Source: Acidobacteriota bacterium (GTDB lineage: Bacteria; Acidobacteriota; B3-B38; Guanabaribacteriales; JAGGZT01). From it: DNA of 64,000 nt. The stretch covers positions 11,092 through 75,091 of the forward strand of contig JAGGZT010000009.1 in assembly GCA_021161905.1 (NCBI GenBank). Reading direction: 5' to 3'. Positions 7,225 through 48,223 of this stretch are shown here, piece after piece; within the stretch, counting starts at the first letter, position 1, and each line of letters begins with the position of its first letter. A program made the position numbers and the translations under genes. The notes under the pieces were generated by a model, which was given only the letters and a program-made list of their open reading frames with translations, was not told the DNA's origin and ran no database searches.

Positions 7225-9903
7225 ATGCGGTTAATTGAACGATATCTCTTAAAAGAGATCTTTCCTCCTACCTTGCTCTCCCTTTTTATCTTCAGCTTTT
7301 TGCTTCTTATGAACACCATTCTCCATTTGGCTGACCTTCTTATCCGCCGTGGAGTAGATTTGAGGCATATCCTTCAGATGATGCTCTATCTTACGCCAAG
7401 CATTGTCGTCTTTACCATCCCTATTGGGGTGCTACTTGGAATAATGGTGGGATTGAACAGACTCGTCTCCGACGGAGAAGTGACTGCTATCCTTGCTGGA
7501 GGGATCAGCCCCTATCGATTTCTCCGTCCCATTATGATATTTGCCCTTCTCTTCTTTCTCATCGATCTATGGCTAATGAACTACGCCCTTCCCTGGGGGA
7601 ACCAATCATTTCGGGAACTCGATTTCAAGATCCTTTCCGGACGAATCATCTCAGGAGAAGTAAAACCAAGGGTATTCAATGAAGATTTTCCCGGAAAAGT
7701 CCTTTATATCTCGGAAGTAGACGAAAAAACTGGCTTGTGGAAACGAGTATTCATATTCGACCAGGGACATCCTGGCGAGTCCCAGGTGATCCTGGCCAAA
7801 GAAGGGCTCCCTATTTTTGAGAAGCGAAAGAGGCGTCTTATCTTGGAACTATCCGAAGCGAAACTATATCAGACCTCTAACATCGATCCAGAAAAAAGAA
7901 CAAGCTTCGCCAACTTCAAACATATGTATTTGGTGCTTCTTTCTATGCCTTCGTTAGCTGAGTTGAACTTAGGAAAGGATGAACGCTCTATGCGAGCGGA
8001 TGAGTTAAGGGAAGAGATATGGAGAACGCGAGGTGAAAGCAGATTAACAGGAATATTAATAAACAAAAGCAGTGAAAAAAAATCTCTTCAAATTAGATTA
8101 AAATTTGTCCAAAATTCCTCAGAGAAGGAGTATACCTTCCCCCTTTCCCTCTTACCCAAGGAGAGGAAGTATATTTCTCTGCCGTTTATCGCCCCCGCCT
8201 TTCCCCAAGATAGCTCTTCCGTAATTATTTCTCTTATTTTTTCGGGAAAACTTGTTTTTTCTCGAGAATTTACTTTAAACAAACTCCCCCCTACCCTTCT
8301 CCGTCATCTTCGAATAAATGGTGATTTGATCGTAGCCAGTCTTGGCTTTCAAGAATTGAACCCAAAAGGCAACCATTTCCATTTTGAGGTAGAATATCAC
8401 AAAAGATATGCCATCCCCTTTGCTTGTCTCGTCTTCGGCATCCTTGGGTTTAGCTTTGCCCTCAAATTCCGGCGGAGTGGAAAGGCAGGAAGCTATGTTA
8501 TTGGACTTATTGTTTTTGTTGTCTATTGGGCTTTTTTCATCAATGGCGAAGCATTCGGGGACAAAGGAATAATTCCTCCCTTCCTTGGAATGTGGGCGGC
8601 CAATATCTTTTTTGGAGCCATTGCCCTCCTCCTGTTAGCCAAAATAAAGTTTAGCGAAGGAACCAGATCTTCTTTACTTAGATTTCTTAGCAACCAATCG
8701 TTGGTATTCGTAAGCAACATTCGAAAGATCTTTAGAAATCGACGAAGAGCGAAAAGGAGAAGAATGATTAATAGCGAAGCCTCCTTCTCTTTTTCTAAAA
8801 AAATCCCCTTCCCCAGCATACTCGATCGGTATATAACCAAGAATTTCATCACTATCTTCTTCTTAGTACTATTCGGGGTGTATTCCATATTTGCCTTAGT
8901 AGATTTCATAGAAATGAACCAAGAAATAGAGAAAAATAACCTATCACACATCCTTCTTGTCGATTTTTTCAAATTCAAGTTACCTCAAATACTTATCTTT
9001 ATTATTCCGATCTCCATCCTAATGGCGACTATGGTTACTTTGGGAATTATGGCGAAAAACAAAGAAACAACAGCAGCTAAGGCGGGAGGTATAAGCATTT
9101 ATCGCCTTTTCATCCCCTTTCTTGTATTTGCCTTAATAGGAAGCGGAATAGTCTTCCTCATCCAGGATCGGATCCTTCCTTACTCCAATCAACGACTTAG
9201 TGAGATAATCCAGATAATTAAAGGAGCTCCTCCTCAAACCTACCGTCAGGCAAAAGGAAGCCGGTACCTATTCGGTAAGGGTAACCGGATCTTCCACCAT
9301 GAAGGGTACGACGAAGAGCACGGAGTCATCAGAAGATTCACTGCCTACGAATTTGATCAGGAAACTCTTTCCCTTAAAGAAATGATATTCGCCCTCTCAC
9401 TCAGATGGGACAAGGCATCCGGTAGATGGTTAAGTTACAATGATGGTTGGCTCTCTCGTTTTTCAGCCAATAAGGTAACCGTTAAGAGGTTCCATAAATT
9501 AAGAAACCACTTTCCCCCTGAGGAACCTTCCTATTTTAGTCGGATAATTCGAGAACCAGAGGAAATGAGTTTTAATGAATTGAGGCTCTACATAAAAGAA
9601 CTCAAAGGATCGGGCGTAGATACCACCAGGGAAGAAGTGGAGCTATATTGGAAGACAGCTTTACCCTTCCTTACCCTGATCATCACCCTCATTGGTCTTG
9701 CTTTTTCCCTAAGGGGAGAAAAGGGAGGAGCGATAACGGGTATCTTCTTTAGCATAACCATAGTAGTAATCTACTGGGTTTTCTGGAGTGTCTTTAAAAA
9801 CCTGGGCTATCTTGGAATACTCCCCCCCTTTCTCGCCGCCTGGAGCCCAAATCTCATCTTTGGAGCAGGAGCATTATATCTCATCCTCACCTTAAGAACT
9901 TAA
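7225..9903 (+). CDS. lptFG: fused LptF-LptG lipopolysaccharide export permease
   Basis: Two YjgP/YjgQ-type halves sit in one 892-aa ORF. The N-terminus is MRLIERYLLKEIFPPTLLSLF. A second module starts near aa 535 (ILDRYITKNFITIFFLVLF). Each half has multiple TM segments and a soluble insert, joined by a basic linker RNRRRAKRRR. Confidence 0.8.
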   Translation: MRLIERYLLKEIFPPTLLSLFIFSFLLLMNTILHLADLLIRRGVDLRHILQMMLYLTPSIVVFTIPIGVLLGIMVGLNRLVSDGEVTAILAGGISPYRFLRPIMIFALLFFLIDLWLMNYALPWGNQSFRELDFKILSGRIISGEVKPRVFNEDFPGKVLYISEVDEKTGLWKRVFIFDQGHPGESQVILAKEGLPIFEKRKRRLILELSEAKLYQTSNIDPEKRTSFANFKHMYLVLLSMPSLAELNLGKDERSMRADELREEIWRTRGESRLTGILINKSSEKKSLQIRLKFVQNSSEKEYTFPLSLLPKERKYISLPFIAPAFPQDSSSVIISLIFSGKLVFSREFTLNKLPPTLLRHLRINGDLIVASLGFQELNPKGNHFHFEVEYHKRYAIPFACLVFGILGFSFALKFRRSGKAGSYVIGLIVFVVYWAFFINGEAFGDKGIIPPFLGMWAANIFFGAIALLLLAKIKFSEGTRSSLLRFLSNQSLVFVSNIRKIFRNRRRAKRRRMINSEASFSFSKKIPFPSILDRYITKNFITIFFLVLFGVYSIFALVDFIEMNQEIEKNNLSHILLVDFFKFKLPQILIFIIPISILMATMVTLGIMAKNKETTAAKAGGISIYRLFIPFLVFALIGSGIVFLIQDRILPYSNQRLSEIIQIIKGAPPQTYRQAKGSRYLFGKGNRIFHHEGYDEEHGVIRRFTAYEFDQETLSLKEMIFALSLRWDKASGRWLSYNDGWLSRFSANKVTVKRFHKLRNHFPPEEPSYFSRIIREPEEMSFNELRLYIKELKGSGVDTTREEVELYWKTALPFLTLIITLIGLAFSLRGEKGGAITGIFFSITIVVIYWVFWSVFKNLGYLGILPPFLAAWSPNLIFGAGALYLILTLRT

Positions 9904-41357: not shown

Positions 41358-42560
41358 ATGACCGTGAGGCTTTATCTGGATAATTCCTATTGCAAAAAGT
41401 TCACTGCCACCGTCAAGAAGGTAAAACGGGAGAATGATCTTTGGGCAGTTATTTTGGATAAAACCGCCTTCTTCCCCACCTCTGGTGGGCAACCTCATGA
41501 TACCGGATGGCTTGATGGAAAGGAGGTAATCGATGTATTTGAAGATGGAGAGGAGGTTGTTCATTTGATCAAGGAGGAGATAAAGGAGAAAACGGAGGTA
41601 GAGGGAGAAATAAACTGGAAACGTCGCTTCGATCATATGCAACAACATACTGCTCAACATCTTCTCTCCGCTGTCCTTCTCGAGCTCTATCGCCTCCAGA
41701 CGGTAGGTTTCCACCTCGGCTCCGAGGTTACCACTATCGATCTTCCTTTACCCAACCTCGAGGAGAGAGCACTTATTAAAGCAGAGGAGATGACAAATGA
41801 ATTGATTACGCGTAACCTCGGAATAAGGGCTTATTTTATGCCCCGGGAGAAAATATCGGAGCTGAATTTGAGAAAAAAAGAGGAGATCCCTAAGGGTACC
41901 TTCCTCCGGGTAGTGGAGATAGAAGGGGTCGATCGCTCCCTCTGCTGTGGCACTCACCTCGCTCACACTGGGGAAATCGGGATGATAAAGATAATCCAAA
42001 AAGAGAAGGTGAAGGGGAACACTCGGATAGGCTTCCTCGCTGGTTTCCGCGCCTTAAGGGAATATCAACGGGAACATCAACTATTAAAAGAGCTTTCCTC
42101 AGAACTTAACTTTAGCTTTGATGAACTGAAAAAGGCGATAGAGAACCTCAAACTCAAAGGAAAAAGACTAAAGAGAGAGAATAAGGAATTAAGGAATAAG
42201 TTAGCGGACCTTCTGGCGGAGAGGATGATCAGCGAGGGGGAAGAAGAAGGAGATATTTTGGTATATTCTGGGATCTTAAAAGGTATAGATAGGGAAACCC
42301 TTAGGCTTTCGGTAATAAAAGGGGCGAACAAGAGAAAAGCGGTTCTTCTCGTCGGAGGGATAACGGGGGAAGAAGTTCATCTGATCTTCGCCTCCTCCAA
42401 AGGATTAGGTCTCCCAATGCACGAAGCTATGGAAAAGGTGGTGCCTCTAATAAAAGGAAAAGGCGGCGGTAGTAAGGAATTTGCCTCAGGTGAAGGAAAC
42501 GATCCATCCCGGCTTGAAGAGGCGCTCCTATTAGCGAGAAAAACCTTAAGAATCGGTTAG
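41358..42560 (+). CDS. alaX: AlaX-L type alanyl-tRNA editing protein
   Basis: N-terminal LYLDNSYCKKFTATV. Zinc/editing motifs HTAQHLLSAV and CCGTH (tRNA_SAD). C-terminal DHHA1-like KGKGGGSKEFASG. Confidence 0.88.
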   Translation: MTVRLYLDNSYCKKFTATVKKVKRENDLWAVILDKTAFFPTSGGQPHDTGWLDGKEVIDVFEDGEEVVHLIKEEIKEKTEVEGEINWKRRFDHMQQHTAQHLLSAVLLELYRLQTVGFHLGSEVTTIDLPLPNLEERALIKAEEMTNELITRNLGIRAYFMPREKISELNLRKKEEIPKGTFLRVVEIEGVDRSLCCGTHLAHTGEIGMIKIIQKEKVKGNTRIGFLAGFRALREYQREHQLLKELSSELNFSFDELKKAIENLKLKGKRLKRENKELRNKLADLLAERMISEGEEEGDILVYSGILKGIDRETLRLSVIKGANKRKAVLLVGGITGEEVHLIFASSKGLGLPMHEAMEKVVPLIKGKGGGSKEFASGEGNDPSRLEEALLLARKTLRIG

Positions 42561-43111
42561 TTTCTCCTCTCAAAAAAGGATAGGAGTCGGAGTGGTAAGC
42601 GATAGATCCTTTCCGAGAAACGGAGGAACCCTCTCTTCCATCCGGAAGAAGGGGGGTTATCCCAGAAGGTGCGATAGAAATTGGATCTTCCTAAAGTTCG
42701 GTATAGGATATGGGAGTAAAAAGCGATAAGGAGGGGAAGGTATCTATTTTTCTTCCTAAGGGTTATCTTTCTTCCCTCCCTTATCACCCCTTCAACCCTC
42801 CCTATGATAGCAGAAGAAGGGATATAGCCATCTATATCGAGAAGGACATCCCCTTTAATGACGAATTTCAGCTCACCATCCCCTTCTATTACCCTTATCA
42901 CCCGATGAGAGAAGAGCTTTCCCTCCTTCATAAAAAGGACGATGTCCCCACGACTTATCTCTTTTGGGGGTATATAACGCACCTCCATCAGTTCGCCATC
43001 ACGGATGGAATAACCCATACTCCTCCCCCGACATCTGAGGAAGAGGGGCTTCTTTCTCATTATCTCCCTTAGAAGCTCGGTTTCTACCTCTATGGGGATA
43101 TCCCTTTTCAT
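42557..43111 (-). CDS. S26B (SipW/archaeal-type) signal-peptidase-like serine peptidase; candidate leader peptidase
   Basis: CRGRSMGYSIRDGEL...GDIVLF...SHRVIRV...FVIKGDVLLDID matches the G-SM, HRV and KGD-x-D blocks of SipW-type peptidases. There is no N-terminal TM anchor. A hydrophobic segment lies near the C-terminus. Confidence 0.6.
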   Translation of the reverse strand: MKRDIPIEVETELLREIMRKKPLFLRCRGRSMGYSIRDGELMEVRYIPPKEISRGDIVLFMKEGKLFSHRVIRVIEGDGELKFVIKGDVLLDIDGYIPSSAIIGRVEGVIREGRKITLRKKNRYLPLLIAFYSHILYRTLGRSNFYRTFWDNPPSSGWKRGFLRFSERIYRLPLRLLSFFERRN

Positions 43112-44526
43112 TCTGGCGATTTTTTCTTAATAAGCTGGGAATAAAGGAGGGAAAGGGTGGTATGATAATTTGTATATCGTTCCATTAGGATCCGATCGAT
43201 CTCCCGCTCCAGTTTCCTTCGGAGCTCAATAAGTTTCTCCATAGGTAACGAGGTGAGATTGACCACCGGTCTATTGGTAAAATCTGGCCTTAAGCTGAGG
43301 AATTCCTTCACCCCTTTTATCTTCCCCCGTTTCACCGCCTCCATAAAAAGAGGAGTGCCCGGTATGGGAGTGAGATAGAAAAAATGGACCTGAGGAAAAA
43401 CACTCCAGTAGGAAAGAGGGCGAAAGGCTTCATCGACAAACCTTATTGTATCCTCTACTGTCTCTTCATTCTCCTCAAACATCCCGATCATAAAGTACAT
43501 TACTGGGGTAAGTCCGGCGTCAACCGTAGCTCTTATCGCCTCGATAGCTCGCTCTACCTTTACTCCTTTCTTAAAGGCATCGAGTATCCGCTGGCTACCA
43601 CTTTCGATCCCATACCTTATTGAATAACAGCCAGCCTCTTTCATTTTACGGTACATCTCGAGGTCAGCGGTATTGACATGACCATTACAGGTCCAAAATA
43701 TCTTCAAGCCCTCGCTAAGAACCCTCTCACAGAACTCCATCACTCGATCCTTATTGAAAGTGAAGATGTCATCCCAGAAGTAGAAATTGTTCAGCTTATA
43801 TCTTTTATAAAGCTCCTTTATCTCCGCTATCAGGTTCTCTATTGAGCGAGCACGGATTTTGTTACCTTTAATATTATGGTCGCAATAGGTACATTGATAA
43901 GGACACCCTCTACTCCCTATAACCGCCATTTGCCCAGATACATAACGCTCCTTAGTGGAAAGATCAGGGTCGAAGAAAACATTCCTTCGATAAAACTCTA
44001 TCGGAAAGAGATCCCAAGAAGGAAAAGGGATAGAATCGAGGTCCTCGAGAAACCGACGGGGCGAGGTGAAAATCGCCTCCCCTTCTTTCCTATAGGCAAT
44101 CCCGGGAATGGAATCAAAGGTTCCCCCGGAAGCGATTGCTGAGAGAAGTTCCGGAGTAGTCTCTTCACCCTCCCCGATTACGATAAAATCAACCGGTAGT
44201 TGCTCCAACAGATAGCGCGGAATGGCGGTAGCTAAGCTTCCACCAAGAACTATCTTCGTCTCTGGATGATAATGCTCAAAGGCTCGGATAAGACCCTCAA
44301 TGTACCCATAGTTCTTGATCATCCCAGTAATACCAACCACATCATAGCCTTTGGCAGAACGAATCTGAGCAACCGCTTTATTAAGAGAAACCTGGGGAGC
44401 ATTAAGGTCCCATACCTCTACCTTTATCCGCCGGGAAAGAAGGGAAGAAGCAACATAAGCAAGGCCCAAGGGGAAACTGGGGACTATATCCTCTCCATAA
44501 GAGGGATTAATAAGAAGAACCTTCAT
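43108..44526 (-). CDS. class B (B12-binding domain) radical SAM enzyme
   Basis: N-terminal Rossmann-like B12-binding region (VVGITGM...VLGG). Radical SAM cluster motif GCPYQCTYC. Typical class B length (472 aa). Confidence 0.85.
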   Translation of the reverse strand: MKVLLINPSYGEDIVPSFPLGLAYVASSLLSRRIKVEVWDLNAPQVSLNKAVAQIRSAKGYDVVGITGMIKNYGYIEGLIRAFEHYHPETKIVLGGSLATAIPRYLLEQLPVDFIVIGEGEETTPELLSAIASGGTFDSIPGIAYRKEGEAIFTSPRRFLEDLDSIPFPSWDLFPIEFYRRNVFFDPDLSTKERYVSGQMAVIGSRGCPYQCTYCDHNIKGNKIRARSIENLIAEIKELYKRYKLNNFYFWDDIFTFNKDRVMEFCERVLSEGLKIFWTCNGHVNTADLEMYRKMKEAGCYSIRYGIESGSQRILDAFKKGVKVERAIEAIRATVDAGLTPVMYFMIGMFEENEETVEDTIRFVDEAFRPLSYWSVFPQVHFFYLTPIPGTPLFMEAVKRGKIKGVKEFLSLRPDFTNRPVVNLTSLPMEKLIELRRKLEREIDRILMERYTNYHTTLSLLYSQLIKKKSPE

Positions 44527-44532
44527 TTCGTC

Positions 44533-44688
44533 TTAACTTCTTATCACTGCGCTACCCGGTCCCTTCCTCGGACAACAGGTCATTTGCGGTGTCTGAGTGG
44601 GGGTGTAGTTAAAGGTACATTGAAGAGCCGCTTCCTCAAATACCTTTTCCGAGGTAATTTTAGGTTTTTGATAGGGTTTTTTCGCCAT
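44533..44688 (-). CDS. 51-aa candidate RiPP precursor peptide (not in ORF track)
   Basis: My translation gives MAKKPYQKPKITSEKVFEEAALQCTFNYTPTQTPQMTCCPRKGPGSAVIRS, then a stop. GAGGGAG lies 4 nt upstream of the ATG. The ORF fills the only non-coding gap in the operon; its start lies 29 nt inside the SPASM gene's 3' end and its stop 6 nt before the B12-rSAM ATG. Confidence 0.65.
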   Translation of the reverse strand: MAKKPYQKPKITSEKVFEEAALQCTFNYTPTQTPQMTCCPRKGPGSAVIRS

Positions 44689-45754
44689 TTTTCTCCCTCA
44701 CCTTGTTCTCATTTTCTAATTTATTGACTATTTTTGCAATACGGCAAGCCTCCCGATAGGGAGAGCGGACATCCCCCTCCTCAAGCTCTGCCAGAGCAGG
44801 ACAGCGGAGACATTTCAAAAAGAAGGGGCACTTTCTACATTCAGCGAGATCCGAAAGATGGATCTCCCGCAGTCTCAGAAAGATGGGGGATGAAGCCCAA
44901 ATCTTAGAAAAATGATCTATTTTAAGGTCACCAGCTGCTCTAAGAAATTGGGCACAAGGGAAGACAAGCCCATTAGGGGAAATCCTTGCCGAGTTCACTC
45001 CCGCCCCGCAAGGATGAGTGGTAGCAAGATACTCCTCATCCATTGAGGGTTGCTCTTTAGATTCACAAACAGGATCTTCCCTGGTGGGAGTAGTCGTTTT
45101 GAATAGAAAATAAAGCTCCTCATCGGTTAATCGGAGTGAGAGGGGTGATCTATCTCCGTTATTCCTTGGGGAAATAATAACCGAACCGCGGAAGCCCGCG
45201 CCGATCTTCTCAACCAGATCCAGTAGTTCCCTGGCTTCATTAATATTTTCCCTCATCCAAAGCGTTTTCAACACCACCCTGACCCCCATCTCCTTAAGGA
45301 GCTTAGCACTTTCTATCGTTTTCTCAAACGATCCAGCTACCCTCGTTATCCTCTCGTGAGTGCGTGCTTTTGCTCCGTAAATGCTTATCTCCACTGACCA
45401 AGGGGAAAAGGAGGCTATTCTCTTAGCAATATCTCTGGTTATAAGAGTGCCGTTGGTGAAAATGGTGATAGCAAACCGTTTTTTTCTAAGGTACTCTACT
45501 ATATCAAAGAAATCGCTTCTAAGAAGGGGCTCACCCCCAGTCAAGGTGAGAAAAAGGGTTCCTGCCTCAGCCAGATCGTTCGCTATCTCCTTTATCTTAG
45601 ACAGGGGAAGCTCCTCCTCTTTCTCTCCAAGAAGATAACAATGGCGACACTCGAGATTACAGCGATAGGTGAGCTCCCAAATAATGGAAAAGGGCAGAGC
45701 CTTCTCCCTCGTTTTTGCGATAAAGTGGGATAAAACGCCCTCCTCAACCTTCAT
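44660..45754 (-). CDS. radical SAM enzyme with C-terminal SPASM domain (peptide-modifying type)
   Basis: YRCNLECRHC (CxxxCxxC). FLTLTGGEPL. The C-terminal auxiliary-cluster cysteines are HPCGAG...FPC...CRKCPFFLKCLRC. Confidence 0.88.
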   Translation of the reverse strand: MKVEEGVLSHFIAKTREKALPFSIIWELTYRCNLECRHCYLLGEKEEELPLSKIKEIANDLAEAGTLFLTLTGGEPLLRSDFFDIVEYLRKKRFAITIFTNGTLITRDIAKRIASFSPWSVEISIYGAKARTHERITRVAGSFEKTIESAKLLKEMGVRVVLKTLWMRENINEARELLDLVEKIGAGFRGSVIISPRNNGDRSPLSLRLTDEELYFLFKTTTPTREDPVCESKEQPSMDEEYLATTHPCGAGVNSARISPNGLVFPCAQFLRAAGDLKIDHFSKIWASSPIFLRLREIHLSDLAECRKCPFFLKCLRCPALAELEEGDVRSPYREACRIAKIVNKLENENKVREKNGEKTLSKT

Positions 45755-46043
45755 CTCCTGCCCCTTGTATTACGATTATTCCCTTCTCCTTTAGTTCCCC
45801 GAGGAACTCAAGCACATCTCTTTCTGCCTGTCTTTCATCTACTTCGTACTCTTCGCATATCTTGGCGATCAAATCGCCAACCTTTATCCCCGTGTCTATA
45901 AGCTCCCAAATTCTCGTTCCTACTTCGTTTAGGGTATGGATCACTCGGTCTTTAGCGGTGAGGATTATCGCCTCTCCCTGGATTACCCGAAAGGCGAGAT
46001 CATCGCTCCGAGATACAAAGTCATCGGGCTTTATCATCGGCAA
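45744..46043 (-). CDS. PqqD-family peptide chaperone (RRE)
   Basis: 99 aa. FRVIQGEAIILTAKDRVIHTLNEVGTRIWELIDTGIKVGDLIAKICEEYEVDERQAERDVLEFLGELKEKGII is a typical PqqD winged-helix pattern. Confidence 0.85.
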   Translation of the reverse strand: MPMIKPDDFVSRSDDLAFRVIQGEAIILTAKDRVIHTLNEVGTRIWELIDTGIKVGDLIAKICEEYEVDERQAERDVLEFLGELKEKGIIVIQGAGDEG

Positions 46044-46908
46044 TCACCTTCCATAATTCCCTCGTGGGCTTAAAATGAAGCTTATAACAGGGAACGCTCA
46101 AGATCAACTCCTCAGCTGTCCCCATAAACTCCTCGATTCGGGTAGAATCGGTTTCAAAAAGGAGGGAATTACTCACCACTTCTTTAAGAGAGAAGGGAAG
46201 AGAGGCTGGTTCAAGGTAATTCAGTTCATCCTTCTGGTTGAGAAATAAGGCACCAAGGGGAACACCGAAGTTTGCTCGAAACCTCCGGCTAAAACCGGCA
46301 AAGGGGGTGCCGAAAACCCAGAAGTCTCCATTCTTCTTAACCACCAATGAAAGTTCATCGGTCAAAACAGTGTAAGATGGAGGAGTAAGTTTGGCTATGG
46401 TGGACTTGCCGCTTTCTGAGGGACCAATGAACAACGCCCCCCTTCCCCCCATCCTAACCCCCGCAGAATGGATAAGTAAGCCTTTATGTCTCAAGCTCAA
46501 TCGGGAAAAGAGGATCCTCATAAGGGAATCGAGAGCTGTTGGATTTATATCCTTAAACAAAGCGTACCCCACATCCCCATCCTCTCCAATAATGGCAAAA
46601 GCCCCTTGCAGATGGACGAGTGTCTCATTATCCCTTTTTAATAACTGTGGAGGCATATCCGGAGGCAGCTCCTCAAGACCAAGGTTTATAAGCTCCCTTT
46701 TGTACCTTTCTTTATCCACTTCTATTAAGATCGAATATTCCCCAACTCTATCATTTATAAATGGATGATAATAAGAACGCACACTCTTTAAGAAAGAAGG
46801 CGAGGAGAAGGATAAAGTAAGGCCTATCCCTCCAATATCTAAATTTAACCCCCTCTTTTTATTTTTTACAAATTGCCACATTTCCCTATCCAGTTTTAAT
46901 TTTATCAT
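46021..46908 (-). CDS. HPr-kinase-like (HprK-related) P-loop kinase
   Basis: LLIHSAGVRMGGRGALFIGPSESGKSTIAKL resembles the HPrK/P C-terminal catalytic domain, with the Walker A preceded by HxxxV..G.G.l..G. Confidence 0.7.
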   Translation of the reverse strand: MIKLKLDREMWQFVKNKKRGLNLDIGGIGLTLSFSSPSFLKSVRSYYHPFINDRVGEYSILIEVDKERYKRELINLGLEELPPDMPPQLLKRDNETLVHLQGAFAIIGEDGDVGYALFKDINPTALDSLMRILFSRLSLRHKGLLIHSAGVRMGGRGALFIGPSESGKSTIAKLTPPSYTVLTDELSLVVKKNGDFWVFGTPFAGFSRRFRANFGVPLGALFLNQKDELNYLEPASLPFSLKEVVSNSLLFETDSTRIEEFMGTAEELILSVPCYKLHFKPTRELWKVIADDKAR

Positions 46909-46918
46909 ACACCGTAGC

Positions 46919-48079
46919 TTAGGTCAATCGAACCTTTTTCTTCAATAGGTTAGCACACAAGTTTAACATCATAAAAAATATCTTCATTAACCGTAAAGGA
47001 TAAGCAAGAAAAGAGAGTCTTGAATAAAGGGGGACCATCTCCCTCATTATTTCGGGACGAGGAAAGGCGGTTTCCAGAGCGAAATGAAATCGATTTCTAA
47101 AACCCTTTATTGAAAGAAGAAAAAGGAGATCGCCAAAATAGGGAAGAGGTGCAAAAGAAAGAAGCTTCCTATATCCTATCTCCTCGAGGAGATTCAAGGG
47201 TGGTTTCGTTAATGAATGGATTAAATCCTCTGAAATATTGGGGTTCAGATGGGTTTTAATAAAACCCAAGGAGAAGAGGAGGCTCCGGTCCAGATTTAGC
47301 CTTCCTGCTAACTTCCGAAGAACATCTAGGTCTAAATTGCTCAAACGAATTAGCTCGCTCAGATCGACGAACCAAATAAGACGGGAGAACGAATGCCTCT
47401 GGAGATGGGAAGCAAGATAGAGAAATTCATCCTCCGGGGAAAGGTAGAGGGCATAAGGGAAAGGACCCTCTTTAGTCCTTGCTTTCTCCCAAATCTCATT
47501 TATATCGAAGGAGAAGACAAACCTCCTCGCTTTAATCCGGCTCACATTACCGAGCTCTTGATGGATGTCGAGCAGAAGCTCTCCATCGGAAAAAAGATGG
47601 GTGTATCTTCCCACCTGTTCGAACCCGAGCTCGGCAATGATCGAGACTACTCTATCCATATCTCCTTCTCTTATCAAGAGGTCAACATCACCTATTGGGC
47701 GAAGCCCGGGATCAGGATAAAGGGTTCCGATAAGGGCAATGCCTTGTAGGAGAATAAAATCTACACCCTTCTTGGCAAATATCTCTCCTATCTCAGCGAA
47801 AGCTTGTAGGGTAAACTCATTCGTTCGCTTTGTGCGCCAATAAAGCGCTTTTAGGGTATCAACTACCTTTTGAGGTATCCCCTTATCTTTAAGGTTGTGA
47901 TAAAGAAGAGGAGCCACTCCCTCTATTTCTGCCCGCTTCACCAACAGCTCCCAATCAAGCGGGGAGTTTAGAAGCCTCCTCAAATCCCTCTCAAGCTCTG
48001 GGGTTAGCTCAAGGTGGGAACAAGCAAGGATTAAGCTCTCCTCCCTGGAGAGAGATAGAAGATCTCTTTTTATCATCAT
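46919..48079 (-). CDS. PF14907-type (NTP_transf_5) nucleotidyltransferase-family protein
   Basis: GVAPLLYHNL...FILLQGIAL...PIGDVDLLIREGDMDRVVSIIAELGFE is the characteristic uncharacterised-nucleotidyltransferase core. Confidence 0.7.
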   Translation of the reverse strand: MMIKRDLLSLSREESLILACSHLELTPELERDLRRLLNSPLDWELLVKRAEIEGVAPLLYHNLKDKGIPQKVVDTLKALYWRTKRTNEFTLQAFAEIGEIFAKKGVDFILLQGIALIGTLYPDPGLRPIGDVDLLIREGDMDRVVSIIAELGFEQVGRYTHLFSDGELLLDIHQELGNVSRIKARRFVFSFDINEIWEKARTKEGPFPYALYLSPEDEFLYLASHLQRHSFSRLIWFVDLSELIRLSNLDLDVLRKLAGRLNLDRSLLFSLGFIKTHLNPNISEDLIHSLTKPPLNLLEEIGYRKLLSFAPLPYFGDLLFLLSIKGFRNRFHFALETAFPRPEIMREMVPLYSRLSFLAYPLRLMKIFFMMLNLCANLLKKKVRLT

Positions 48080-48103: not shown

Positions 48104-48179
48104 TGGTGGGCGGTACTGGACTTGAACCAGTGACCTTTGGCTTGTCGAGCCAACGCTCTCCCAACTGAGCTAACCGCCC
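48104..48179 (-). tRNA. tRNA-Val (anticodon GAC), CCA encoded
   Basis: The minus strand is GGGCGGTTAGCTCAGTTGGGAGAGCGTTGGCTCGACAAGCCAAAGGTCACTGGTTCAAGTCCAGTACCGCCCACCA. It folds as a 76-nt cloverleaf. The acceptor is GGGCGGT/ACCGCCC and the D arm GCTC/GAGC. The anticodon stem is TTGGC/GCCAA with loop TCGACAA. The T arm is ACTGG/CCAGT with TTCAAGT. Confidence 0.9.
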
Positions 48180-48193
48180 ACACTCTCTTTTGG

Positions 48194-48223
48194 ATTATAG
48201 GGAGAAGGGCGCTCTTTTGTCAA
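48194..48223 (-). promoter_or_regulatory. near-consensus sigma70 promoter for tRNA-Val (and possibly the downstream operon)
   Basis: The minus strand reads TTGACA, an 18-nt spacer, then TATAAT. The -10 hexamer ends 14 nt before the tRNA 5' end. Confidence 0.6.

What the first reader, a model, noticed from the sequence alone, without database searches (positions are those of the whole stretch)
46021..48079. HPr-kinase-like enzyme and nucleotidyltransferase paired with a precursor ending in Ser, without a lasso cyclase
Seen: the candidate precursor terminates in ...AVIRS. The operon opens with a PF14907-like nucleotidyltransferase and an HPrK-like P-loop protein.

Established: in paeninodin-type lasso peptide clusters an HPr-kinase homologue phosphorylates the C-terminal Ser of the precursor. 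In some clusters a nucleotidyltransferase-family enzyme further decorates that phosphoserine.

Inference: the same C-terminal Ser O-phosphorylation, possibly followed by further phospho-linked decoration, may be grafted here onto a radical-SAM-modified peptide rather than a lasso. That would be a new scaffold for this tailoring chemistry.
Basis: inference. Interest (0 to 1): 0.7.

Follow-up and report, generated by a model that had tools for sequence, protein, structure and literature searches.

The report
Kinase-equipped radical-SAM peptide gene cluster
A seven-gene operon for a modified peptide combines radical-SAM enzymes with the kinase, nucleotidyltransferase, chaperone and signal-peptidase-like protease known from phosphorylated lasso and linear peptides, and related precursors almost always end in serine, the likely phosphorylation site.

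Summary
Window 42557-48079 (minus strand) is one compact operon. It encodes a PF14907 nucleotidyltransferase, an HPrK/PEPCK-fold P-loop protein of Pfam family ScmC, a PqqD-type RRE, a radical-SAM/SPASM enzyme, a 51-aa precursor ending AVIRS, a B12-radical-SAM enzyme and an S24/S26 SipW-like peptidase. The window has no lasso cyclase or B2 protease.

The kinase-like protein keeps His147, Lys168 and Asp184 of the His-Lys-Asp-Asp motif of lasso-peptide kinases. The fourth residue is Glu185.

Of 120 listed precursor homologues, 119 end in Ser. All 51 recognisable precursors next to ScmC homologues in 80 metagenome loci end in Ser. One divergent locus ends in Cys.

C-terminal Ser phosphorylation is therefore the best-supported reading, but the evidence is in silico only.

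A cyclase-less cluster with the same four proteins was published in 2026 as the linear polyphosphorylated peptides (LPPs) of Bacillota. There the kinase phosphorylates core Ser3. ScmC with PqqD and rSAM/SPASM has long been a named but uncharacterised cassette.

What appears undescribed is the fusion with radical-SAM chemistry, the invariant C-terminal Ser, and a large soil-metagenome family. I rate this a new variant of a known kind.

The parts
46919..48079 (-). PF14907 (NTP_transf_5) nucleotidyltransferase-fold protein, 386 aa, the first gene of the operon. The putative catalytic residues D131 and D133 lie in the motif GDVDLL.
   Evidence: Pfam E 4.8e-46. D131, D133, H173 and D239 are invariant in 32 homologues. 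The AF2 model has pLDDT 90, and its best PDB matches are ANT(2'')-Ia (4wqk, 5cfu, 4xje, 5cfs), MenT1 and LnuA. PsmN D134/D136 are essential (PMC6993621).
46021..46908 (-). ScmC-family protein with an HPrK/PEPCK-like P-loop, 295 aa, the putative peptide Ser kinase. Key residues are H147, Walker A G162-T170 (K168) and D184-E185.
   Evidence: In 150 diverse representatives, H147 is kept in 150, K168 in 149 and D184 in 149. Position 185 is Glu in 140 and Asp in 10.
45744..46043 (-). PqqD-type RiPP recognition element (RRE), 97-99 aa. Gene callers place the start 6 nt downstream of the TTG.
   Evidence: Pfam PqqD E 6.8e-20. The best NCBIfam hit is lasso_PqqD_Bac, 56.8 bits, below the cut-off of 80.
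44660..45754 (-). Radical SAM/SPASM peptide maturase, 364 aa. It probably cross-links Cys residues of the core.
   Evidence: Pfam Radical_SAM E 1e-25 and SPASM E 1.5e-6. No NCBIfam family reaches its cut-off. A homologue is conserved next to ScmC and PqqD in most related loci.
44533..44688 (-). Precursor peptide, 51 aa. The leader has a YxxPx[I/L/F] RRE-binding motif and ends ...VFEE. The predicted core is AALQCTFNYTPTQTPQMTCCPRKGPGSAVIRS, with 3 Cys and a C-terminal Ser51.
   Evidence: ORF and Shine-Dalgarno sequence. The family profile A2 hits only this ORF in the window, at E 6.6e-13. The leader is homologous to more than 170 precursors. The peptide is identical in three 99%-identical contigs, with one synonymous change. 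Gene callers do not call it there.
43108..44526 (-). B12-binding radical SAM enzyme, 472 aa, probably a C-methyltransferase. Among the loci compared, it occurs only in this operon and its three 99%-identical copies L020-L022.
   Evidence: Pfam B12-binding E 8.6e-19 and Radical_SAM E 3.5e-28. The NCBIfam hits ApyD and RiPP C-methyltransferase fall below their cut-offs. It is absent from the other loci.
42557..43111 (-). S24/S26 archaeal-type (SipW-like) signal-peptidase homologue, 184 aa, the putative leader peptidase. Candidate catalytic residues are S31, H69 and D88-D94.
   Evidence: Pfam Peptidase_S24 25.8 bits, above the cut-off of 23.3. NCBIfam sigpep_I_arch E 3e-10 and SipW E 2e-5, both below cut-off. 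A homologue is conserved in most related loci. LppS is the experimentally shown SpI-like leader peptidase of LPPs, with catalytic S29/H68/D93 (PMC13381572).
48194..48223 (-). Sigma-70-type promoter-like site (TTGACA-18-TATAAT, 12 of 12 matches). It lies upstream of tRNA-Val (48104-48179) and may also drive the operon.
   Evidence: This is a consensus match only.

Best explanation
The operon makes a ribosomal peptide natural product. The following steps are inferred, not shown.

1. The PqqD-type RRE binds the Y-Q-K-P-K-I motif of the leader and presents the 51-aa precursor to the other enzymes.
2. The ScmC-family HPrK-like P-loop enzyme uses ATP to phosphorylate the side chain of the C-terminal Ser51, once or several times. 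Paeninodin-type lasso kinases do the same.
3. The PF14907 nucleotidyltransferase-fold enzyme then caps that phosphate with a further group. In pseudomycoidin this group is a hexose; the identity here is unknown.
4. The rSAM/SPASM enzyme cross-links core Cys residues, most likely as thioethers.
5. The B12-rSAM enzyme C-methylates the core.
6. The SipW-like peptidase, helped by the RRE, removes the leader. By homology with LPP leaders (F-3, E-2, T-1), it most likely cuts after ...VFEE.

The gene content, homologies, conserved residues and invariant terminal Ser are shown. Every chemical step is inferred.
For: - Fold: the kinase-like protein matches only PEPCK and HPrK/P among the significant PDB hits. 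Its sequence profile hits PEPCK at the HA..GxSGxGKT region.
- Homology to lasso kinases: hhalign gives 96% probability against the kinase of a true lasso cluster, L007. L007 has Asn_synthase, PqqD and PF14907, and its precursor ends TFS. H147, K168, D184 and E185 align to that kinase's H, K, D and D.
- Conservation: these residues are near-invariant in 150 representatives that share less than 50% identity. His-Lys-Asp-Asp is the published catalytic motif (PMC9266682). PsmK D158/D159 are essential.
- Terminal Ser, database set: 119 of 120 precursor homologues end in Ser. The exception is a read-through.
- Terminal Ser, metagenome set: 51 of 51 precursors within 3 kb of a ScmC gene end in Ser. 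Position -2 varies over at least 6 residues, and 13% of background small ORFs end in Ser.
- The Ser tracks the kinase rather than the rSAM enzyme. L003 has ScmC and PqqD but no rSAM, and its precursor ends DGS. The lasso locus L007 ends TFS.
- No conserved Ser lies at the LPP-type +3 position.
- NTase linkage: a PF14907 gene is present in 15 of 33 loci with enough flank. S24-peptidase-PF14907 fusion proteins exist. The NTase shares the DxD motif and the ANT(2'')-like fold reported for PsmN.
- An experimentally studied cluster with the same four proteins, the LPPs, does phosphorylate its peptide and uses the SpI-like peptidase with the RRE (PMC13381572).
Against: - No experiment has been done on this family.
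- In the closest cyclase-less system, the LPPs, the kinase targets core Ser3, not the C-terminus.
- The second acidic catalytic residue is Glu, not Asp.
- One divergent ScmC locus, L002, has a precursor ending in Cys.
- Many 38-aa homologues that end in Ser have no maturase within 8 kb, so the Ser could serve another purpose.
- In 6 loci with enough flank, no precursor was recognised.
- The precursor profile contained the terminal Ser column, which adds a small detection bias.
- LppN was inactive in heterologous expression, and PsmN's chemistry is unresolved. The NTase step is therefore the weakest inference.
Confidence: 0.55

Rival explanations
1. The enzyme is a peptide kinase, but its acceptor is not the C-terminal Ser. 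It phosphorylates an internal Ser or Thr, as LppK does at core Ser3. The invariant terminal Ser then serves another step, such as recognition by the rSAM enzyme, an exporter or the neighbouring C25 peptidase.
For: LppK phosphorylates Ser3 just after the FET cleavage site. The window core holds several Thr residues and Ser46. 38-aa homologues keep the terminal Ser in loci with no kinase nearby.
Against: No Ser or Thr is conserved at +3/+4 across the families: the window has AAL, the soil family has MAL[S/A] and the 38-aa family has RAV. The terminal Ser is the only hydroxyl residue invariant across otherwise unalignable cores. It also occurs in ScmC loci without rSAM (L003) and in the lasso locus L007.
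Confidence: 0.17
2. Phosphorylation of the terminal Ser is a transient activation, not a decoration. The phosphate is eliminated to give a C-terminal dehydroalanine. That residue is then captured by the Cys usually found 7 residues upstream to form a lanthionine-like ring, or it is hydrolysed to a C-terminal amide.
For: A Cys sits at position -8 in 44 of 48 soil-family cores and in 79 of 119 38-aa cores. The NTase is absent from about half of the loci, so a phosphate-capping step is not obligatory. Kinase-then-eliminate logic is established for class III/IV lanthipeptides (own knowledge).
Against: No lyase homologue was recognised in the cassette. In the window peptide the nearest Cys is at -13/-14, not -8. 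In paeninodin, pseudomycoidin and the LPPs the phosphate persists in the products.
Confidence: 0.1
3. The ScmC-family protein is not a protein or peptide kinase. It could be an ATPase or scaffold for the RRE/rSAM complex. Alternatively it could activate the C-terminal carboxylate or another substrate, as PEPCK-fold enzymes act on small molecules.
For: The best structural matches are PEPCKs (E 1e-8) rather than HPrK/P (E 3e-5). NCBIfam HprK-related and ScmC models are hit far below their cut-offs. No ScmC-family member has been characterised; searches for SynChlorMet and for HPr kinase with SPASM returned no papers.
Against: The full His, Walker A Lys and Asp-Glu/Asp set used by HPrK-type Ser kinases is near-invariant. 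The protein aligns with lasso-cluster kinases. A terminal carboxylate acceptor would not explain selection for Ser specifically.
Confidence: 0.1
4. The pairing is a chance juxtaposition or a decayed cluster, and the 51-aa ORF is not a real gene.
For: Gene callers did not call the 51-aa ORF in three near-identical contigs, and it overlaps the rSAM gene by 29 nt.
Against: The cassette recurs in over 80 independent loci with a homologous precursor. The ORF has a strong Shine-Dalgarno sequence. All enzymes keep their catalytic motifs. The operon is tightly packed between housekeeping genes.
Confidence: 0.02

Closest known systems
Linear polyphosphorylated peptides (LPP; lppA-K-B-S-D-N of Paenibacillus alginolyticus; Popov et al., Nat Commun 2026, PMC13381572)
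   Same: It has the same four-protein module without a lasso cyclase: an HprK-like kinase, a discrete RRE, an archaeal-type (SipW-like) signal-peptidase leader protease and an uncharacterised NTP transferase. The leader has YxxP and an F-E-x end; the soil relatives have exactly FET and the window has FEE. The clusters lie close to polysaccharide biosynthesis loci.
   Different: LPP clusters have no radical SAM enzymes; the term does not occur in the paper or its supplements. LppK phosphorylates core Ser3, and LPP C-termini are highly variable. Here there is no Ser at +3 and the C-terminal Ser is invariant. LPPs are reported as restricted to Bacillota and have an MsbA-like exporter, which this operon lacks. 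I could not test whether LppK belongs to Pfam ScmC or to Hpr_kinase_C.
Phosphorylated lasso peptides (paeninodin PadeK, ThcoK, SyanK; pseudomycoidin PsmK/PsmN)
   Same: An HPrK-like kinase acts on a C-terminal Ser of an RRE-bound precursor. A PF14907-type NTase is needed for hexose addition to the phosphate. The RRE is of the lasso type. The published kinase motif is His-Lys-Asp-Asp.
   Different: The window has no macrolactam cyclase (Asn-synthase-like) and no B2 cysteine protease. The last catalytic Asp is Glu. The kinase is a core gene here rather than an accessory gene. The peptide is probably cross-linked by rSAM chemistry instead of being threaded.
SynChlorMet (SCM) cassette: ScmC, ScmD (PqqD) and ScmE/ScmF (rSAM/SPASM); NCBIfam TIGR04248-TIGR04251; Pfam PF27840 ScmC
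   Same: It is a conserved neighbourhood of a ScmC-family P-loop protein, a PqqD homologue and rSAM/SPASM enzymes. The window protein's database twin is assigned to Pfam ScmC.
   Different: The window proteins score far below the NCBIfam equivalog cut-offs: ScmC 25.8 against 125, ScmD 20.8 against 100 and ScmE 125.9 against 400. The window has one SPASM enzyme rather than two. It adds a B12-rSAM enzyme, a SipW-like peptidase and an NTase. The SCM cassette has no assigned function or precursor (own knowledge of the TIGRFAMs description).
HPr kinase/phosphorylase (HPrK/P) and ATP-dependent PEP carboxykinase
   Same: They share the P-loop fold and the arrangement of His, Walker A Lys and an acidic pair.
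   Different: The window protein has no Pfam Hpr_kinase_C match and a different N-terminal domain. Its genomic context is a RiPP operon, not PTS regulation.
Sactipeptide and ranthipeptide maturation systems (PqqD/RRE plus rSAM/SPASM acting on Cys-containing cores)
   Same: Both have an rSAM/SPASM enzyme, an RRE, short Cys-containing cores and a YxxP-type leader.
   Different: No NCBIfam sacti- or ranthipeptide maturase model reaches its cut-off. In the literature searched, none of these classes is described with an HPrK-like kinase.

Membership tests
Lasso-peptide tailoring kinases (PadeK/ThcoK/PsmK type) | HPrK/PEPCK-like P-loop fold | tested here: met
   In the Foldseek PDB search, the 50 hits with E <= 1e-3 are PEPCKs and HPrK/Ps, apart from one respiratory-supercomplex chain, 8iuf_E2. 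hhalign to the lasso-cluster kinase of L007 gives 96% probability.
Lasso-peptide tailoring kinases (PadeK/ThcoK/PsmK type) | Catalytic His-Lys-Asp-Asp motif | tested here: inconclusive
   H147, K168 and D184 are present and near-invariant. The fourth position is Glu185, with Glu in 140 and Asp in 10 of 150 relatives. This is a conservative change whose effect is unknown.
Lasso-peptide tailoring kinases (PadeK/ThcoK/PsmK type) | Encoded in a cluster with a lasso cyclase (Asn-synthase homologue) and a B2 protease | tested here: not met
   No SGGxDS motif and no phmmer hit to a lasso C or B2 protein in the 64-kb window. The neighbours are housekeeping genes.
Lasso-peptide tailoring kinases (PadeK/ThcoK/PsmK type) | Cognate precursor ends in Ser | tested here: met
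   The window precursor ends AVIRS. 119 of 120 database homologues and 51 of 51 metagenome homologues end in Ser.
Lasso-peptide tailoring kinases (PadeK/ThcoK/PsmK type) | Phosphotransfer to the C-terminal Ser of the precursor | not testable with these tools
   This needs an in vitro kinase assay or heterologous expression with MS.
LPP (linear polyphosphorylated peptide) clusters | Core gene set of SpI-like peptidase, discrete RRE, HprK-like kinase and NTP transferase, without a cyclase | tested here: met
   All four are present in one operon. The definition is taken from PMC13381572.
LPP (linear polyphosphorylated peptide) clusters | MsbA-like exporter in the cluster | tested here: not met
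   There is no transporter gene in the operon or directly flanking it.
LPP (linear polyphosphorylated peptide) clusters | Leader consensus YxxPxVLxHQxIxFET followed by xxS, the phospho-acceptor Ser3 | tested here: not met
   YxxP and F-E at positions -3/-2 are present. The spacing is 2 residues shorter, and the core starts AALQC with no Ser at +3.
LPP (linear polyphosphorylated peptide) clusters | Linear product, with no other backbone or side-chain cross-linking enzymes | tested here: not met
   The operon contains rSAM/SPASM and B12-rSAM genes.
ScmC family / SynChlorMet cassette | Match to Pfam PF27840 ScmC | tested here: met
   This is the precomputed assignment for the 99%-identical P0001 and for all relatives. 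The model is not in the local Pfam copy, so I did not recompute it.
ScmC family / SynChlorMet cassette | NCBIfam TIGR04249 equivalog cut-off (125 bits), and a cassette with ScmD, ScmE and ScmF | tested here: not met
   ScmC scores 25.8 bits, ScmD 20.8 against 100, ScmE 125.9 against 400 and ScmF 104.8 against 400. Only one SPASM enzyme is present.
PF14907 NTase (PsmN/LppN-like) | Pfam PF14907 match and a metal-binding DxD motif | tested here: met
   157.8 bits against a cut-off of 31.2. D131 and D133 are invariant. The fold is ANT(2'')-like, as reported for PsmN.
PF14907 NTase (PsmN/LppN-like) | Adds a group to the peptide-bound phosphate | not testable with these tools
   PsmN-dependent +162 Da adducts are known only for pseudomycoidin. 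LppN was silent in heterologous expression.
HPr kinase/phosphorylase proper | Pfam Hpr_kinase_C or NCBIfam TIGR00679 match | tested here: not met
   No hit at E <= 0.1.
Sacti-/ranthipeptide maturases | Radical SAM core, SPASM domain and an RRE partner | tested here: met
   Radical_SAM E 1e-25 and SPASM E 1.5e-6, with an adjacent PqqD gene.
Sacti-/ranthipeptide maturases | Membership of a characterised maturase family (PapB, AlbA, StsB and others), or shown thioether formation | tested here: not met
   All NCBIfam matches are far below their cut-offs, for example PapB 78 against 340 and StsB 115 against 625. The chemistry is not testable here.

The most novel reading that the evidence does not exclude
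The ScmC-type kinase acting on an invariant C-terminal Ser may be the class-defining step of a large uncharacterised RiPP class. That class is common in soil and peat metagenomes (Acidobacteriota and others) and is distinct from both lasso peptides and LPPs. Its products would be rSAM-cross-linked (here also C-methylated) peptides carrying a C-terminal O-(poly)phosphoserine. Where a PF14907 enzyme is present, the phosphate would be converted into a phosphodiester-linked glycosyl or nucleotidyl adduct. Given the recurrent neighbourhood with polysaccharide export loci, that adduct might tie the peptide to exopolysaccharide biology.
Probability: 0.35. Interest if true: 0.75.

Novelty: new variant of a known kind. 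Interest (0 to 1): 0.55.

Why it matters
Phosphorylation is rare in natural-product biosynthesis. Until 2026 the HPrK-like kinase and NTase pair was known only as a tailoring step on lasso peptides, and it was then found on linear Bacillota peptides.

This operon and more than 80 related loci show the same RRE, kinase and signal-peptidase module fused to radical-SAM chemistry in other phyla. The profile search counts about 1,900 kinase relatives at E <= 1e-30 among representatives clustered at 50% identity.

The strictly conserved terminal Ser gives a concrete and cheap hypothesis to test. Confirmation would do four things:
- Define a new RiPP class.
- Assign a function to the long-orphan ScmC family.
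- Show that the module is a portable unit that different RiPP scaffolds have recruited.
- Provide thermostable-looking enzymes for site-specific C-terminal phosphorylation of peptides.

Tried and rejected
- Lasso cluster: rejected. The window has no Asn-synthase or B2 homologue.
- True SCM cassette, GeoRSP, mycofactocin, PQQ, or a named sacti-/ranthipeptide system: rejected. All NCBIfam scores are far below their cut-offs.
- Genuine HPrK/P: rejected. There is no Hpr_kinase_C match.
- A sequence search of the kinase profile against PDB sequences mostly returned generic P-loop hits, with PEPCK the only informative one. The fold search was needed.
- The genome-contig scan was swamped by the generic Walker A pattern and gave only 5 true loci.
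A 6-sequence alignment worked.
- The paeninodin paper (PMC4919450) is not held, so I could not align PadeK and ThcoK directly. The kinase of the Mesorhizobium lasso locus L007 served as proxy.
- Literature searches for SynChlorMet, for 'HPr kinase' with ranthipeptide, for 'HPr kinase' with SPASM, and for PF14907 found nothing relevant.
- I looked for precursors in six loci with adequate flank and found none recognisable.
- The 240-aa and 400-aa proteins next to the orphan 38-aa precursors have no Pfam match and no similarity to the cassette enzymes.


Full report
**Anatomy**

The finding's coordinates match two adjacent minus-strand ORFs exactly. These ORFs open a compact seven-gene operon (42557-48079). 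The operon lies between tRNA-Val (48104-48179) and a convergent AlaX-like gene.

The genes, in order of transcription, are:

| Coordinates | Product |
|---|---|
| 46919-48079 | PF14907 nucleotidyltransferase (E 4.8e-46) |
| 46021-46908 | 295-aa P-loop protein |
| 45744-46043 | PqqD-type RRE |
| 44660-45754 | radical SAM/SPASM enzyme |
| 44533-44688 | 51-aa precursor |
| 43108-44526 | B12-binding radical SAM enzyme |
| 42557-43111 | S24/S26 peptidase, closest to archaeal-type/SipW signal peptidases |

The precursor reads MAKKPYQKPKITSEKVFEEAALQCTFNYTPTQTPQMTCCPRKGPGSAVIRS and follows a good Shine-Dalgarno sequence.

The same operon occurs at 99.2% identity in three other samples. Its precursor there differs by one synonymous change.

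The 64-kb window has no lasso cyclase and no B2 protease.

**The kinase-like protein**

A single-sequence search found only 11 relatives, all assigned to Pfam PF27840 'ScmC'. A profile of these relatives found 1,898 representatives at E <= 1e-30 and 13,678 at E <= 1e-10, in a library clustered at 50% identity. The family is therefore large.

NCBIfam gives weak hits, all below cut-off, to ScmC (TIGR04249) and to HprK-related kinases A and B.

An AlphaFold2 model (pLDDT 88, pTM 0.85) matches ATP-dependent PEP carboxykinases (best E 1.3e-8) and HPr kinase/phosphorylases (E 3e-5 to 1e-3). With one exception, a respiratory-supercomplex chain at rank 36, these are the only 50 PDB hits with E <= 1e-3. 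The sequence profile also aligns to PEPCK across the HA..GxSGxGKT segment.

Profile-sequence alignment to the kinase of a genuine lasso cluster gives 96% probability. That cluster is L007 from Mesorhizobium amorphae. It has Asn_synthase PF00733, PqqD and a PF14907 NTase, and its precursor ends ...ELTFS. The alignment superposes H147, K168, D184 and E185 on that kinase's H, K, D and D.

A Bacillota homologue that passes Pfam Hpr_kinase_C aligns in the same way.

Across 150 diverse representatives the counts are:
- His147: 150 of 150
- Lys168: 149 of 150
- Asp184: 149 of 150
- position 185: Glu in 140, Asp in 10

The published catalytic motif of lasso kinases is His-Lys-Asp-Asp (PMC9266682). PsmK D158A/D159A is inactive (PMC6993621). 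So three of the four catalytic residues are kept, and the fourth is conservatively changed to Glu.

**The nucleotidyltransferase**

D131 and D133 (in GDVDLL), H173 and D239 are invariant in 32 homologues.

The model (pLDDT 90) best matches ANT(2'')-Ia (4wqk, 5cfu, 4xje, 5cfs), MenT1 and LnuA. Zyubko et al. reported two of these entries, 5cfs and 4xje, for PsmN, whose D134/D136 are essential.

Two database homologues are fusions of an S24 peptidase with PF14907. This ties the NTase to the same pathway as the peptidase.

Precursors found by eye in related loci share the leader K-K-x-Y-x-K-P-x-[I/F]...E..[F/I]E and one to three Cys residues.

A profile search returned 255 peptides, of which the 120 best were listed. 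Of these, 119 end in Ser. The single exception is the same peptide read through its stop codon.

A metagenome scan with the C-terminal half of the kinase returned 80 loci. They share a remarkably uniform cassette: precursor, S24 peptidase, ScmC, PqqD, rSAM/SPASM, and often PF14907.

All 51 recognisable precursors within 3 kb of the kinase gene end in Ser; 48 of them have distinct C-terminal sequences. Position -2 varies over at least six residues. Of the background small ORFs in the same loci, 13% end in Ser.

The Ser follows the kinase rather than the rSAM enzyme:
- A Chloroflexia locus has ScmC and PqqD but no rSAM enzyme, and its precursor ends ...GSDGS.
- The lasso locus ends ...TFS.

Several caveats apply:
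- One divergent locus, L002, has a precursor ending ...RHNC. It has two rSAM enzymes, a transglutaminase-type protease and a weak peptide-arginase match.
- Six loci with adequate flank have no recognisable precursor.
- The L001 precursor lacks an in-frame stop, unless a 1-nt indel in a GGGG run is assumed. That would give ...KKNS*.
- A subgroup of 38-aa homologues keeps the terminal Ser in a different neighbourhood (ECF sigma, anti-sigma, FG-GAP, TPR) with no maturase within 8 kb.

The NTase is present in 15 of 33 loci with enough flank. It is frequent but optional.

**What is already known**

PadeK, ThcoK and PsmK phosphorylate the C-terminal Ser of lasso precursors, and PsmN is needed for hexose addition to the phosphate.

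That paper describes the 'linear polyphosphorylated peptides' (LPPs) of Bacillota. [quoted passage not shown] They have no lasso cyclase.

The LPP kinase polyphosphorylates Ser3 of the core (FET|AQS). The peptidase needs the RRE and leader residues F-3, E-2 and T-1. The clusters sit in capsular-polysaccharide loci. Radical SAM enzymes are not mentioned in the text or in the supplements held.

The window operon contains the same four-protein module. Its relatives' leaders end in exactly FET, and the window's ends in FEE. This gives a homology-based prediction of the cleavage site. The window also lies beside a polysaccharide synthesis and export locus.

The ScmC + PqqD + rSAM/SPASM neighbourhood is itself an old, function-less annotation, the SCM cassette. 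None of these proteins reaches the NCBIfam equivalog cut-offs.

Searches for HPr kinase together with SPASM or ranthipeptide, and for SynChlorMet, found no paper.

**Mechanism proposed**

All of the following steps are inferred.
1. The RRE binds the YxxP leader.
2. The ScmC-type kinase phosphorylates Ser51.
3. The PF14907 enzyme caps the phosphate.
4. The SPASM enzyme cross-links Cys residues.
5. The B12-rSAM enzyme methylates the core.
6. The SipW-like peptidase cuts after VFEE.

The main rival is an internal acceptor, as in the LPPs. No Ser or Thr is conserved near the junction across the families, whereas the terminal Ser is the only invariant hydroxyl residue.

The other rivals are transient phosphorylation for elimination or ring closure, and a non-kinase role. 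The evidence does not exclude either, but both are less likely.

**Verdict**

The functional inference is well supported by comparative genomics but remains untested.

The novelty claim must be narrowed. This is not the first cyclase-less use of the kinase and NTase pair. It is an apparently undescribed and very widespread variant in which that module is combined with radical-SAM maturases and a strictly C-terminal Ser.

I rate it a new variant of a known kind, with moderate-to-good interest because it is directly testable.

Noticed in passing
window 48104-48223 (minus strand): tRNA-Val(GAC) is preceded by a perfect sigma-70 consensus promoter (TTGACA-18-TATAAT). It ends only 24 nt before the NTase start codon. 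The peptide operon may be co-transcribed with the tRNA.
   Followed up: partly
window 17100-39507 (minus strand): This is a large polysaccharide synthesis and export locus: Polysacc_synt flippase, Wzy_C, Wzz/GNVR tyrosine-kinase-like protein, Poly_export fused to FG-GAP repeats, and an AAA_22+HD_5 protein. It lies about 3 kb from the operon. The divergent locus L002 is flanked by AAA_22, HD_5, Poly_export and Wzz genes, and LPP and paeninodin clusters are reported inside capsule loci. This may be a recurrent association.
   Followed up: partly
L008-L013, L018, L019 (precursor at about 8001-8117 in each): 38-aa precursor homologues that end ...GPITS, or a close variant such as ...GPIQS, sit in a conserved neighbourhood with no ScmC, PqqD or rSAM gene within 8 kb. 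The neighbourhood holds an ECF sigma factor, a TSP_3 protein, an FG-GAP protein, a zf-HC2 anti-sigma factor, two proteins without any Pfam match (about 240 and 400 aa) and TPR/PMT_2 proteins.
   Followed up: partly
L003 9363-12527; L004 7502-12010; L014-L017: Very large Peptidase_C25 (gingipain-like) proteins of 1054-1502 aa lie directly after the precursors in the Acidobacteriota and Chloroflexia versions of the cassette. L003 and L015-L017 were confirmed by Pfam; L004 and L014 were identified by phmmer similarity to L003.
   Followed up: no
P0319, P0329 (NTase homologues): These are natural fusions of a Peptidase_S24 domain with the PF14907 NTase domain. They are Rosetta-stone evidence that the two act in one pathway.
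   Followed up: no
L002 4861-11716: This divergent cluster has a Transglut_core3 protease, PqqD, ScmC, two rSAM genes and a precursor MKKKKKKKYEKPEMSVKKLKVFFAACQNSAPCTPLRHNC that ends in Cys. It also has a weak peptide-arginase-like protein, a NosD-like protein and a PF14907 NTase. It is the one clear exception to the terminal-Ser rule.
   Followed up: partly
L001 12107-12757: The precursor ORF has no in-frame stop and overlaps the S24 peptidase gene. A 1-nt indel in a GGGG run would give ...GACKAVKKNS*. This is probably an assembly error in a long-read contig.
   Followed up: partly
L006 22-2754: A Bacillota contig carries two HPrK-like paralogues, one ScmC-like and one passing Pfam Hpr_kinase_C. 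They flank an S24 peptidase and a PqqD gene and are followed by an ABC exporter. This may be an LPP-type cluster.
   Followed up: no
window 44660-44688; L020-L022: The 51-aa precursor overlaps the end of the rSAM/SPASM gene by 29 nt. Gene callers did not call it in any of the three near-identical public contigs, so automated annotation would miss it.
   Followed up: yes
L039 2630-6493: This metagenome locus has the window's gene order: NTase, ScmC, PqqD, rSAM/SPASM, precursor. Most other loci place the precursor and peptidase first. Its precursor ends ...AAPRRS.
   Followed up: no
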